A model generated the notes under the pieces. It saw only the letters and a list, made by a program, of their open reading frames with translations. It was not told the origin of the DNA and made no database searches. Made by a program: the position numbers and the translations under genes. 64,000 bases of DNA, taken from Eledone cirrhosa (Eukaryota). Shown here piece after piece: positions 16,503 to 59,682 of this stretch (position 1 is the stretch's first letter; each line of letters begins with the position of its first letter). The stretch covers positions 27,838,001-27,902,000 of the forward strand of contig OZ024763.1 in assembly GCA_964016885.1 (NCBI GenBank), in the 5' to 3' direction.

Positions 16503-16785
16503 ACGATATTAAATAAATGGAAACTATATTTATAAAACCATATTTATTTCGTTATATATATTTCTGGGATATCATATTAAAAATATGGTATGCCTTCCTC
16601 AGACAATACCATATTTTTTAATATGATATCCCAGAAATATATATAACGAAATAAATATGGTTTTATAAATATAGTTTCCATTTATTTAATATCGTAAACC
16701 TACTCCAGAAACTGTTGAGTGCTTTTATATCAGTTATAAAATATTTACTCGTTGTAACCCAACAATCTTAAATAAAACTTTTGCA
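16503..16785 (+). mobile_element. Palindromic hammerhead island in (TA)n (PLE pLTR-like)
   Basis: About 90-bp inverted arms at 16503-16591 and 16606-16695. Minus-strand HHR at 16550-16605 (tgt CTGAGGA..GAAA tatata TA acg). Tail ACTC..GAGTGC at 16702-16722. Related fragment at 44855-44950. Confidence 0.8.
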
Positions 16786-16895
16786 TATATATATATATAT
16801 ATATATATATATATATATATATATATATATATATATATAAATCAGGAAAGAAGAATGACACGGTTTGCTATACAAAAAAGGTTTTTAATCTCATT

Positions 16896-17001
16896 GCTGA
16901 CAATTGTTTCTCTGAACTGGTAGGTCTAGAGATCGCCACCCGCTTATTTCCACGTTATTCGATCACCAATACAATGTTATAACCAGTCAATTCATCGGAG
17001 C
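16896..17001 (-). ncRNA. Hammerhead motif with extended stem II
   Basis: Reverse complement: gct CCGATGA [~80 nt] GAAA caattg TC agc. Palindrome ACAATTGT, GUC triplet. Partial family copy at 20280-20400 (+). Confidence 0.7.
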
Positions 17002-17805
17002 TTGTGAGAATGAAAAGAATATACAGGCATGGCTACTATATATAGTAGTAATGGCATTCAATCAGAACAATAACAACAATACTAACAATGCTAGCAATAA
17101 ATTATTTGAAATAATCACAACATCGATCTAGGTGGGAAGTATAGTATATCTACGATTTTAACGTGTATATATATATATATATATATATATATATATATAT
17201 ATATATATATATATAATAATAATAATAAAAACAATAACATACATGTTCTTTAAAGGTGAAATTGGTAGGAAAGATGTTACCCCGTTAAGTTTAAAATTTG
17301 GCTGTCTACGTCTCTACGTCTACGAGTAGCTAGATGTCCACGAGAAAGAAACCGATATTCCCTTCTTTCGCATTTATATAGGAACAGTCCATTAAACAAA
17401 TATTTCTATATATATTCGTCGATTTATTTGAAGGGAGATCAGTGTATATATGTATTAAATAAATTAATGATTTCTCCTGTTAAGAAATGAATGTAGCTTT
17501 CGATCAAGGTTCGATTCTTATCGTATGTAGTGAAGTGATTTTGTTGAATCAATAACTGGTAGATAGTTGTCAAATAGTTCTTACTATATTGATAGGAAAT
17601 CAAGTGCCAAAACAACAAACAATTTTTTTTTTCTTTTTGTGGAAGAAGATAGTTCATACAGGATGTGTCTGTGTGTATATATATATATATATATATATAT
17701 ATATATATATATATATACATTGGACCCCCTTCTAAACTACGTATTTTATATATATATATAGTGACGAAACATAAGTCAATTGCATGAACTCATAATCCTT
17801 TATTT

Positions 17806-56000: not shown

Positions 56001-59000
56001 AACCCCAAGCTTTCCTCATCAACCACCTCAATGTGAGCAATTTCAACCATTCACATTTATGTACACATAAACACACATATATACACACAATTACACAAAT
56101 AGACTCAATAACATATATACACAGAACCACACATATATACACACATACAAACACATATATACACAGATACAAACACATATACACAAACACACATTTATAC
56201 AAACACACATTTGTACACACACAAACACATATATATACACACACACAAACACACATACAAACACATATTTATACACACAAACAAACAGATAAATACACAC
56301 AAACACACATATGTACACACAAACACACACATATACACACAAACACACATATATATATACACACACAAACACACATATATACACATACAAACCCACACTC
56401 AGAATATGTTTTTAAAATGTTTTAATATATATTTTGTCAATATATTCATTATTTTTTTCATTTCGTTTGTTTTTGTAATTTTTTTTTTCATTTTTCTTTT
56501 AGTTTTTTTTTCTTTAAAGTCAAGTGAATGATTTAAGGTGAGTGAGAGACCGAGTGATTCGAGTTGAGTAGGAGTTGAGTTGAGTGGAGTGGAGTGGAGC
56601 TGAGTTGAGTTAAGTTGAGTTAAGTTGAGTTTAGTGGAGTGAAAGAGGTGAATGTGAGAACTACTATTATCTGCTGTCGTCGCAGTATTATTATTATTAG
56701 TAGTAATAGCAATAGTATTGGTAATAGTGTTTGTTTTCAACCCTCACTCAGTAGAATATAACTGGTACATAGAAGTATTATTATTATTTTTTTTTTGTCC
56801 TCAGCAAAAAGAGGAAAGAATGAAAGGCAAAAAATATCGAGTACGCCATAACATTTAACAAATTCCACACAGACACGTGTATCTGTGTGTATATATATAT
56901 ATATATATATATATATATATATATATATTCATTTATATATATATATTTATATATATACATGGATATATATATATATATATCCATATACATGTATATACTT
57001 TTTAATATATACAAACACAGACACGATTTTTCTCCGACATTTTTTGTATTATACAAGTCGTTTTCTGTCAAACTTCGTCAAACACACATACACACATACA
57101 TACACACATGCACGCGCCCACACATACATACATTCGTACATACACGCACACGTTTCATAATTTTTTTTTTTCTTTGTACATCAATAGGGTTCACAAACAT
57201 GCATTGATCATGCATTGCTTAACATACAGTTTGCATGCACTTATGTGTATATATCCTGTATGTATTTATAATTATATATCTTTGTGTGTACATATATATA
57301 CGTATATATATATATATATATATATATATATATATATATATATATATATATATATTATATATATATATATATATTTGTTTATATTTTTTTAAAAAAGCAT
57401 ATTTTTTAAATCCACCATATATATATATATATATATATATATATATATATATATATATATATATGTATATGTGTATATATATATATATGAGGAGTTTTAA
57501 GCATAACGTTTCTGAAGGAAAAAAAAGGCAACATTCCCCCACCCCCATACCCCCATCTCCTTCAACAACAGGTATTAAAAAGAAATGACATATTTATACA
57601 CATACAAACACACACAGCATATATATATATATATATATATATATATATATATATATGGAAACATAATAGACAAGGTGTAGCAGACATATTGGCAACAACA
57701 ACAACAACAAAAAAAATAACAGCGGCAGCAGCAGCAGCAGCAGCGATAAAAAGAAAGAAAGAAAGAAAGAAAGAAAGAGAGAAAGAAAGCTAATATAATA
57801 ATAATAATTATTATATTAAATCGACCCCAGTGCGTTACTGATACTTTATTTTATCGACCATGTAAGGATGAAAGACAAAGCTATCCTTGGTGGGATTTGA
57901 ACTCAGAACGTAGTAAGAAGTAAGTAAAATACCGCAAAGAATTTTATCCCAGGCTCTGACGATTTTGCCGATTCACAATCCTTAAGATTTCTAATATTGA
58001 CAGGGGGCCAGTAATTTAAAGGGATTCCATAGTCAATTAAAAACGATATACCCTACCCGCCCTGCTGACATCACTAGTAGTTTGTTCTTCAAACCCTCAG
58101 AATGGTGAAAGAGGGTTAAGTTGTCTTTCACTCTGAATGCAAAGAACTGGAACGTAGATGAAAGTAGAGATAGTAAAAGAGTCGGTGACAAATATATATA
58201 TATATATATCATATATATATATCATATATATATATATTATATATATATATATATATTATATATATATATTATATATATATATTATATATATATATATCAT
58301 ATATATATATATCATATATATATATATATATATCATATATATATCATATATATATATATAATATATATAAATATATTATATATATATCATATATATAAAT
58401 ATATTATATATATATATAAATATATTATATATATATATATATATATATATATATATATACATCATATATATATATATATATACATCATATATATATATAT
58501 ATACATCATATATATACATATATATACATCATATATATATATATATATACATCATATATATACATCATATATATATACATCATATATATATATATATATA
58601 TATATATATATATATATATATCATATATATATATATCATATATATATATATATCATATATATATATATACATATATATCATATATATATATATATCATAT
58701 ATATATATATACATCATATATATATATATATATATACATCATATATATATATATATATATATATATATATATATACATCATATATATATATACATATACG
58801 TACATATAATAAATAGCACGTAGACGTACGGGAGAGCACCATTTGTTTGTGTTGTTTTGTTTTGTTTTAATTAAAGGAAATTAATTTAATCAGATGACAA
58901 ACTTATGATGATGATGATGATGATGATAATGAGGAAGGTGGTGATGAGGTTGATGATGAGGTGAGAGTGAGAGGGTGGGGAGAGTAAGTAGAATGAAACG

Positions 59001-59491
59001 TATTGAACAGGTACTTGAAAAGTTAATGGGTATAAATAAATATATATATACGTACATATATTTATATATATATATATATATATATATATATATATATATA
59101 TATATATATATATATATATATATATAGGCTTTACTTGGTATGTAGACAGACCGCAGAAATACGTATTATGTATAGTAATAATAATAAATTTGAAGACTAA
59201 AATCCAAAGAGGGCTCGATAAGGATAAATATATATATCAGATATATAAGAACCGTAGAGCAAATATTTATTAAAATAACAAATTAAAGTTTAGCGATTCT
59301 TTGCTTAAACTTTAATCTGTTATTTCACGGAGTGAAGTGCAGAGGCTTAAATTTAAAACAAAGACAAATATAAATAAAAGAGGGGGGGGGGGGGGCTAAT
59401 AGTTAGACGATTTGCATAGTATGTTATATGTAATATATATATTTATATATATATATATATATATATATATATATATATATATATATATATA

Positions 59492-59682
59492 CGTTATTCC
59501 GGGTTGAATCGGAGGTAACCACAGTAAGTAAGGTACTCAATACATAGCAGAGTAAAAAGTTTAAATATAGATGAGATTCTACAGGACTAGAACTGTTTCA
59601 TTCTTCAGAAATCATCAGATTCCTGATGATTTCTGAAGAATGAAACAGTTAGTCCTGTAGAATCTCATCTATATTTAAACTT
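59492..59682 (-). mobile_element. Palindromic hammerhead island
   Basis: Arms at about 59557-59618 and 59623-59682. Plus-strand HHR at 59618-59664: gattc CTGATGA tttc tgaa gaat GAAA cag ttagtc ctg TA gaatc. Minus-strand tail ACTC..GAGTAC at 59533-59553. Confidence 0.85.

What the first reader, a model, noticed from the sequence alone, without database searches (positions are those of the whole stretch)
16702..59553. Conserved RCTC-N(11-40)-GAGY(R)C hairpin with compensatory changes across unrelated families
Seen, in the sense direction 3' of the ribozyme: ACTC..GAGTGC (16702-16722, 27587-27613, 37499-37525, 46342-46379, minus 38065-38086); ACTC..GAGTAC (48402-48422, 49507-49527, minus 59533-59553, 19191-19216, 16042-16067, 16259-16284); and GCTC..GAGC (19471-19516, 38538-38560, minus 33241-33284, 59213-59260). 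A-T and G-C covary at the first pair, even within one family (19471 GCTC/GAGC versus about 20858-20903 ACTC/GAGT). The loop varies in length but is often itself paired. I know of no named motif matching this. Inference: a cis-acting RNA or ssDNA signal for RT/endonuclease recognition or 3'-end formation.
Basis: partly seen in the sequence, partly recalled or inferred. Interest (0 to 1): 0.85.

Follow-up and report, generated by a model that had tools for sequence, protein, structure and literature searches.

The report
Twin RNA hairpins start Hydra retrotransposons
The hairpin is one of two matching bulged stem-loops in Hydra-type Penelope jumping genes; their insertions end just before one hairpin on one side and just before the other on the opposite side, so the pair likely tells the reverse transcriptase where to start copying, which would explain the long-unexplained one-sided 'tail' of these elements.

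Summary
The motif is real (17 matches vs 3.4 in shuffles) and richer than reported: a bulged stem-loop, RCUC/stem/2-nt U[UCA] bulge/GAGY. It is the first (HP1) of two such hairpins in Hydra-clade Penelope-like elements (PLEs), ordered hammerhead - HP1 - HP2 - ATG. HP2 is missing from the window copies because they end just before it. Copy 3' ends pile up just 5' of HP1 or HP2 (163 of 179). Head-to-head insertions pair one end of each kind: 73 of 75 short ones, 14 of 14 classed ORF-bearing ones. Marine metagenome relatives (31-44% amino-acid identity) carry both hairpins (22 of 34 loci) with covarying stems and the same end rule, as does a published sea-cucumber Hydra consensus, unremarked. Best reading (inferred): both hairpins bind the RT, which starts one cDNA before each hairpin on the two nicked target strands; the 'tail' is the spacer. 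The families are not unrelated; three are tied to Hydra ORFs, the others by layout only. No description found in nine paper searches; an earlier scan note on this genome had seen twin priming and one hairpin.

The parts
16503..16785 (+). Head-to-head Hydra PLE insertion, family F1, in (TA)n: inverted arm (outer end at site 1) plus main arm with tail (outer end at site 2)
   Evidence: read-through copies continue into HP2 and the ORF
16702..16722 (+). HP1 of family F1
16561..16602 (-). Hammerhead core in the inverted arm of the F1 insertion
   Evidence: descriptor match only, cleavage untested
16043..16068 (-). HP1 in a minimal (almost tail-only) copy of family G
16259..16284 (-). HP1 in a second minimal copy of family G
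19146..19339 (-). Head-to-head insertion of family G; HP1 at 19191-19216; inverted arm stops 8 nt short of HP1
   Evidence: no read-through copy among 30 loci
19358..19535 (+). Head-to-head insertion of family F2; HP1 at 19471-19518; tail cut by a SINE array at 19536
   Evidence: F2 read-through copies show HP2 and the ORF
20237..20265 (-).
   Evidence: family not followed
20856..20903 (-). HP1 of an older F2 copy with A-U instead of G-C at the outer pair
   Evidence: 79% to the F2 reference
27018..27656 (+). Head-to-head insertion of family E; HP1 at 27587-27613; (AC)8 between tail end and (TA)n
33116..33533 (-). Head-to-head insertion of family C; HP1 at 33239-33274
37164..37580 (+). Head-to-head insertion of family A; hammerhead core from 37394; HP1 at 37499-37525
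38065..38086 (-). HP1 of an old F8-group copy; first pair of stem 2 lost
38326..38600 (+). Head-to-head insertion of family D; hammerhead core from 38439; HP1 at 38538-38560
46016..46409 (+). Head-to-head insertion of family B; hammerhead core from 46215; HP1 at 46342-46379; inverted arm stops 7 nt short of HP1
48402..48422 (+). HP1 of an F8-group copy
49384..49568 (+). Head-to-head insertion of family F8; HP1 at 49507-49527
   Evidence: read-through into the ORF in L024
59176..59325 (-). F2 copy; HP1 at 59211-59260; ends 4 nt before the place of HP2 in the F2 reference
59492..59681 (-). Head-to-head insertion of family F8; hammerhead core 59596-59618; HP1 at 59533-59553

Best explanation
The motif is HP1, one of two bulged stem-loops that lie between the hammerhead and the start codon of Hydra-clade Penelope-like elements, and the pair likely positions the element's reverse transcriptase so that one cDNA starts a few bases 5' of each hairpin. 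Shown: the two hairpins, their covarying stems, copy ends just 5' of HP1 (site 1) or HP2 (site 2), and one end of each kind per insertion. Inferred: the GIY-YIG domain nicks both strands of (TA)n; two RT subunits bound to HP1 and HP2 of one RNA each extend one nicked strand; the two 5'-truncated cDNAs are joined head to head. The one-sided PLE 'tail' is then simply the stretch from site 1 to site 2. Because the hairpin lies 3' of the start and is not copied into that end, long copies need a circular (hammerhead-made) or multimeric template (inferred).
For: Ends: 150 at site 1, 169 at site 2, 34 elsewhere, 34 read-through, 28 far upstream; 163 of 179 in two 20-nt windows of 122-236-nt spans. 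Pairing: 73 (1,2), 2 (1,1), 0 (2,2) (57:2:0 without the tail-selected F1); 14 of 14 classed ORF-bearing insertions, the long arm ending at site 1 in 5 and site 2 in 9. Arms do not overlap in L299, L300, L303, L310, and in L303 the long arm holds no tail while the inverted arm does, so the arms are primed separately. Arms share family polymorphisms (84 of 95 vs 50 expected; 95 of 97 vs 56). Metagenome relatives: 22 of 34 loci with two motifs, controls 0-1; stem-2 pairs 1-3 covary; 11 of 14 internal repeat ends within 4 nt of a hairpin start. Loops of 60-108 nt keep both stems. In vitro, the Poseidon PLE starts RT internally at two sites that bound the tail (PMC11167929).
Against: No binding or priming assay. 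Single hairpins fold weakly (-3.6 to -11.6 kcal/mol, z -0.3 to -2.5). G-U versus A-C counts (5 vs 3 in stem-2 pairs 1-3) do not fix the strand or RNA versus DNA. Arm concordance may reflect timing or gene conversion; family D shows little (12 of 17 vs 9). Two (1,1) pairs exist. 13 of 42 ORF-anchored loci in this genome and 4 of 34 metagenome loci have no motif (many are truncated), and two of six published Hydra consensuses have only degenerate forms. Loci came from ranked searches, not a random draw. 'One RNA, two subunits' is the simplest reading, not a shown one.
Confidence: 0.7

Rival explanations
1. The hairpins act on DNA: the GIY-YIG domain cuts a cDNA or donor-DNA intermediate just 5' of each hairpin, and these cuts make the two ends.
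For: The D. virilis Penelope endonuclease needed the tail to cut plasmid DNA (as described in PMC11167929; original not read). Wobble counts do not separate RNA from DNA.
Against: Both ends are sense-strand 3' ends in opposite orientation and arms can be non-overlapping, hard to get from cutting one DNA. Family-specific (TC)n and (CA)n runs between end and target look like synthesis at initiation.
Confidence: 0.12
2. The hairpins direct RNA processing: a nuclease cuts just 5' of each (as RNase P does before tRNA-like folds, recalled), and priming starts at the new RNA 3' ends.
For: Ends lie 5' of the hairpin; GCUC/GAGC-R-C resembles a tRNA D-stem (recalled resemblance).
Against: One RNA has one 3' end, so strict (1,2) pairing would need two differently cut RNAs every time. 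No tRNA in 20 loci. The base after GCUC pairs across a bulge, unlike a D-loop. Poseidon starts internally on uncut RNA.
Confidence: 0.1
3. One cDNA folds back and self-primes; HP1 only stops the second strand (in the spirit of the self-priming model of PMC3846280).
For: Most short insertions are near-perfect palindromes with matching arms.
Against: Non-overlapping arms in four insertions, and five insertions whose long ORF arm ends at site 1 while the short inverted arm carries the tail.
Confidence: 0.04
4. The hairpins serve translation or ribozyme control near the start codon, and the ends fall beside them for another reason.
For: HP2 lies a few tens of bases before the ATG and HP1 about 90-125 nt after the hammerhead core.
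Against: Ends track each hairpin although the spacing runs from 54 to about 180 nt. A second role is not excluded.
Confidence: 0.04

Closest known systems
Hydra-clade Penelope-like elements (Craig et al. 2021, PMC8557442; section 11, passages and supplement parts 52-53 read)
   Same: RT plus C-terminal GIY-YIG with RW[KR], DKT, CxCX5C, CxxC, CxH; hammerhead; (TA)n target; inverted 5'-truncated copy and one-sided tail as for PLEs generally. The published Hydra-1_Ajap consensus begins with both hairpins; Hydra-2_Ajap and Hydra-2_Amil end with HP1 and a tail.
   Different: The paper does not mention the hairpins ('hairpin' 0 in the text, 'stem-loop' and 'hairpin' 0 in the supplement) and ascribes the tail to EN-mediated resolution. 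Units here reach about 4.1 kb against 'generally <3 kb'; tails here are about 55-140 nt against 30-40.
Poseidon element PAc (Frangieh et al. 2024, PMC11167929; main text parts 1-2 of 4 and Fig. S1 text read)
   Same: RT starts internally at two sites that bound the tail; both target strands are cut and extended; dimer predicted.
   Different: Starts lie in an AC-rich stem-loop inside the ORF; the RNA printed in Fig. S1 shows no GCUC/GAGCAC. No fixed pairing of the two sites in one insertion was reported; no start-site difference between strands in vitro.
LINE-1 twin priming (recalled, not read)
   Same: Both nicked target strands prime cDNA and the products join head to head.
   Different: In L1 the second primer anneals at variable internal sites; here both starts are fixed by a repeated structured signal lying 3' of the start.
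RT-binding bulged stem-loops such as hepadnavirus epsilon; telomerase RNA boundary elements (recalled)
   Same: A bulged hairpin sets where an RT starts; the modelled RT folds closest to TERT.
   Different: Here the signal is doubled, lies downstream of the start and is not copied into that end.

Membership tests
Hydra-clade PLE | RWK motif near the N-terminus, GxKF/Y not conserved | tested here: met
   RWR in F1, RWK/RWR in other families; 34 RWK, 12 RWR, 1 GxKF/Y of 51 long homologs
Hydra-clade PLE | DKG changed to DKT | tested here: met
   SDKT in F1; DK[TS] 50, DKG 0 of 51
Hydra-clade PLE | CxCX5C linker; CxxC and CxH in the C-terminal GIY-YIG domain; no CCHH | tested here: met
   F1 ORF has all three and one Cys only inside the GIY-YIG core (read by eye); 47, 51 and 48 of 51 homologs
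Hydra-clade PLE | Hammerhead in the pLTR | tested here: met
   CUGANGA..GAAA cores in 8 of 15 references and 21 metagenome loci; Rfam gathering scores not reached; cleavage untested
Hydra-clade PLE | Insertion into (TA)n | tested here: met
   301 of 319 site-1/site-2 ends abut a dinucleotide repeat, mostly TA
Hydra-clade PLE | Phylogenetic grouping with named Hydra families | not tested
   No tree with Repbase or published references was built; assignment rests on motifs and on reading the published consensuses
Hydra-clade PLE | Families A, B, C, D, E, G linked to a Hydra ORF | tested here: inconclusive
   No read-through copy among 25-30 loci each; same layout, ends and target
Neptune/Nematis PLE | CX2-5CxxC linker and CCHH finger, DKG | tested here: not met
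   my early 'Neptune' label was recall and is withdrawn
Naiad PLE | N-terminal endonuclease, no hammerhead | tested here: not met
   Endonuclease is C-terminal; hammerheads present
Any Rfam family / tRNA-derived | Gathering score or ARAGORN call | tested here: not met
   0 gathering hits in 19 loci; 0 tRNAs in 20 loci; in the window the 150 best of 246 E-value hits were sub-threshold microRNA models on TA runs

The most novel reading that the evidence does not exclude
Hydra PLEs use an undescribed twin RNA signal: an RT dimer grips two downstream bulged hairpins on one circular RNA and primes both target strands at fixed sites, which produces the inverted insertion and one-sided tail in one step; at initiation the RT also repeats the first template dinucleotide, telomerase-like, and so seeds and lengthens microsatellites at each insertion.
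Probability: 0.4. Interest if true: 0.9.

Novelty: new variant of a known kind. Interest (0 to 1): 0.78.

Why it matters
How PLEs, the sister group of telomerase, make inverted insertions with a tail on one side is an open question that the field itself flags (PMC8557442, PMC11167929). A clade-wide, covarying, doubled RNA signal sitting just beyond both insertion ends gives a precise, mutable substrate for the existing in vitro assay, a rule for annotating Hydra boundaries, a reason why tandem or circular templates are needed, and possibly a portable 'start here' tag for a programmable RT. The junction repeats suggest these elements may feed the (TA)n-rich landscape they insert into.

Tried and rejected
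Rfam on the window and on 19 loci: nothing at gathering level. Pfam on the two F1 ORF pieces: 0 families. 'Neptune' label: recalled, used in notes and in two paper searches, withdrawn. Homodimer prediction for residues 1-240: no answer. 5' truncation points show no pile-up at the hammerhead cut or at site 1 (many run to the edge of the reference, so weak). Fold-back copying rejected. Target-site duplication as source of junction repeats: mirror repeat at the other end in 1 of 7 (family B) and 0 of 6 (family E). Searches for read-through copies of families A, B, C, D, E, G found none. Family C site 2 was mis-set, which inflates 'other' ends. In one search the hairpins were picked by hand, families are related and one A-C row (F1c HP1) is a parsing error, so its Fisher p values are optimistic. 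Lunse et al. 2017 was not held; Repbase and Dfam could not be searched; supplements of the bioRxiv retrozyme preprint could not be seen and might bear on novelty.
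Full report
Observation. All 16 sites exist, with small coordinate and strand corrections. Read side by side the sites share more: RCUC, then a second stem opening with Y..R, a variable loop, a 2-nt 3' bulge (UU, UC or UA), then GAGY. This bulged form occurs 20 times against 2.9; 15 of the 16 sites fit, one more (20237) was missed, and four matches with no repeat run nearby are probably chance or other repeats.

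What carries it. The window lies in a 3.0-Gb, (TA)n-rich animal genome. The copy at 16503-16785 has many near-identical relatives (83 matches among 40 scored of 1469 candidates). [quoted passage not shown] I first called it Neptune from memory; the defining features in Craig et al. 2021 make it Hydra: RW[RK], DKT, CxCX5C, CxxC, CxH, no CCHH. A codon pattern for the RW[RK]A motif has 3286 matches in the genome against 36 for the reversed control. Of 50 such loci fetched, 42 kept the N-terminus; 15 had two hairpins upstream, 14 one, 13 none, against 0 of 42 inside the ORF and 3 of 42 on the other strand. Families F1 (16702), F2 (19471, 20858, 59213) and F8 (38065, 48402, 49507, 59533) are tied to such ORFs; A, B, C, D, E and G only by layout. 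The modelled RT (pLDDT 91.6) matches TERT first, as expected for a PLE.

Other animals. Of 77 metagenome loci, 34 had enough upstream DNA and an intact N-terminus: 22 had two motifs, 8 one, 4 none; antisense 1 of 34, ORF interior 0 of 34, shuffles 66 of 6800. In 48 hairpins from 30 non-redundant loci, stem-2 pairs 1-3 were Watson-Crick in 43 of 48, 28 of 43 and 21 of 38 (permutation means 25, 12.5, 9.5; pair 4 not enriched), and only the 2-nt-bulge register paired (97 of 129 vs 42 of 139, 41 of 135, 26 of 115). Permutations ignore relatedness. The outer pair is nearly fixed G-C there; the A-U/G-C swap is seen in this genome (15 G-C, 11 A-U, 1 G-U, 2 A-C of 29 hand-picked hairpins, one A-C a parsing error). 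Spacing is 54-82 nt in metagenome loci and up to about 180 nt here; loops of 60-108 nt keep both stems. Among the six published Hydra consensuses (read by eye), the sea-cucumber Hydra-1_Ajap starts two bases before HP1 and has both hairpins; Hydra-2_Ajap and Hydra-2_Amil end in HP1 plus tail; Hydra-1_Amil stops before the place of HP1; Hydra-1_Obim and Hydra-1_Crog have degenerate forms. The other 62 GAGCAC hits, in Naiad, Chlamys and ORF interiors, showed no such hairpin in the passages displayed.

The ends. With 15 family references, copy 3' ends fell 150 times just 5' of HP1 (site 1), 169 times just 5' of HP2 or at the tail end (site 2), 34 times elsewhere (14 from the mis-set family C), 34 read through and 28 stopped far upstream; 301 of the 319 abut a dinucleotide repeat. 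For families whose HP2 was seen or (F8) inferred, 163 of 179 ends lie in two 20-nt windows; where TA microhomology does not blur the junction the end is about 4-8 nt before RCUC. In metagenome contigs 11 of 14 repeat ends inside a contig were within 4 nt of a hairpin start; 10 at contig edges were dropped. So each hairpin marks an end that lies just outside it.

Pairing. Short head-to-head insertions paired sites (1,2) 73 times, (1,1) twice, (2,2) never; without F1, whose query included the tail, 57:2:0. Independent choice would give half. I then predicted the far ends of ORF-bearing insertions: of 23 loci, 14 had both ends classed and all were (1,2), the long arm ending at site 1 in five and site 2 in nine; nine could not be classed. 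In four the arms do not overlap, which excludes fold-back copying. Arms share polymorphisms beyond chance in A and F1, weakly in D. One of the 23 loci (L033) is a true ORF tandem.

Mechanism (inferred). The protein binds both hairpins on the template RNA; the endonuclease nicks both strands of (TA)n; each nick primes a cDNA a few bases 5' of one hairpin; the cDNAs truncate and join head to head. The tail is the site 1-site 2 spacer, present at one end by construction. Since HP2 is never in an insertion's 3' end, long copies need a circle or a multimer, in line with the proposal of Cervera and de la Pena (PMC4209133, passages). Frangieh et al. showed two internal starts bounding the tail in Poseidon, but with another structure. 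Against: no assay, weak folding energies, no RNA-versus-DNA polarity, exceptions listed above.

Side result. Between end and (TA)n, family B site 1 has (TC)n in 10 of 22 copies and family E site 2 has (CA)n in 16 of 26; no other family-site had TC, and only 20 and 58 of 2476 TA-run ends in 254 kb of unselected DNA follow TC or CA runs. Mirror repeats at the other end are rare (1 of 7, 0 of 6), and two E insertions have TC at one end and CA at the other. The TC unit equals the last two template bases at B site 1. Reiterative copying at initiation is the simplest reading; untested.

Literature. Nine searches found no account of the motif; others returned nothing, and the Hydra search returned only Craig 2021 and a 2026 retrozyme preprint (parts 1-3 of 5 read; no such motif). 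Passages only were read of PMC6765202, PMC7229834, PMC4209133 and PMC3846280. Subscription papers, Repbase notes and Dfam were not searchable. An earlier scan note on another piece of this genome reported twin priming with the second copy starting before a shared hairpin; it is not independent evidence. New here are the second hairpin, the bulge and covariation, the Hydra assignment, the reciprocal pairing and the spread across animals.

Verdict. Known kind of element, apparently undescribed doubled cis signal that accounts for both insertion ends. Interest 0.78.

Noticed in passing
window 27657-27672; loci L211-L239 (family B), L315-L339 (family E), L266-L288 (family D): Family- and site-specific (TC)n or (CA)n runs lie between the element end and the (TA)n target; they look like repeated copying of the first template dinucleotide, telomerase-like.
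   Followed up: partly
G000: 3286 matches to the Hydra RW[RK]A codon pattern (36 control) and at least 14 families among 50 loci: Hydra is a major, diverse repeat here, with 16 or more end fragments in this 64-kb window.
   Followed up: partly
window 16043-16068, 16259-16284; L345, L359, L362, L369: Minimal insertions that are little more than the tail, some with a 15-20 nt inverted arm.
   Followed up: partly
L050, L043 (families F9, F11): The same two stems close loops of 60-108 nt, and copy ends still fall just before them.
   Followed up: yes
L024 2560-2580 (minus): In the one read-through copy of family F8, HP2 seems deleted between two short repeats, leaving only its 3' half.
   Followed up: partly
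window 19396-19425: Family F2 has a hammerhead-like core with A in place of the conserved U (CAGAAGA); activity unknown.
   Followed up: no
window 19146-19535, 37920-38600; L201, L304: Hydra insertions nest into the (TA)n runs that flank earlier ones, giving chains of palindromes.
   Followed up: no
window 19536-20140 and about 15 other places (4500-51160): An abundant SINE-like repeat of about 190 nt, here also as an 84-bp tandem array that cuts the F2 tail.
   Followed up: no
L033 662-5257: True tandem of two ORF-bearing F1 units with both hairpins between them, the kind of locus whose linear transcript could serve as template.
   Followed up: partly
L015, L023, L025: Fragments of other LINE-type RT ORFs near Hydra copies.
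   Followed up: no
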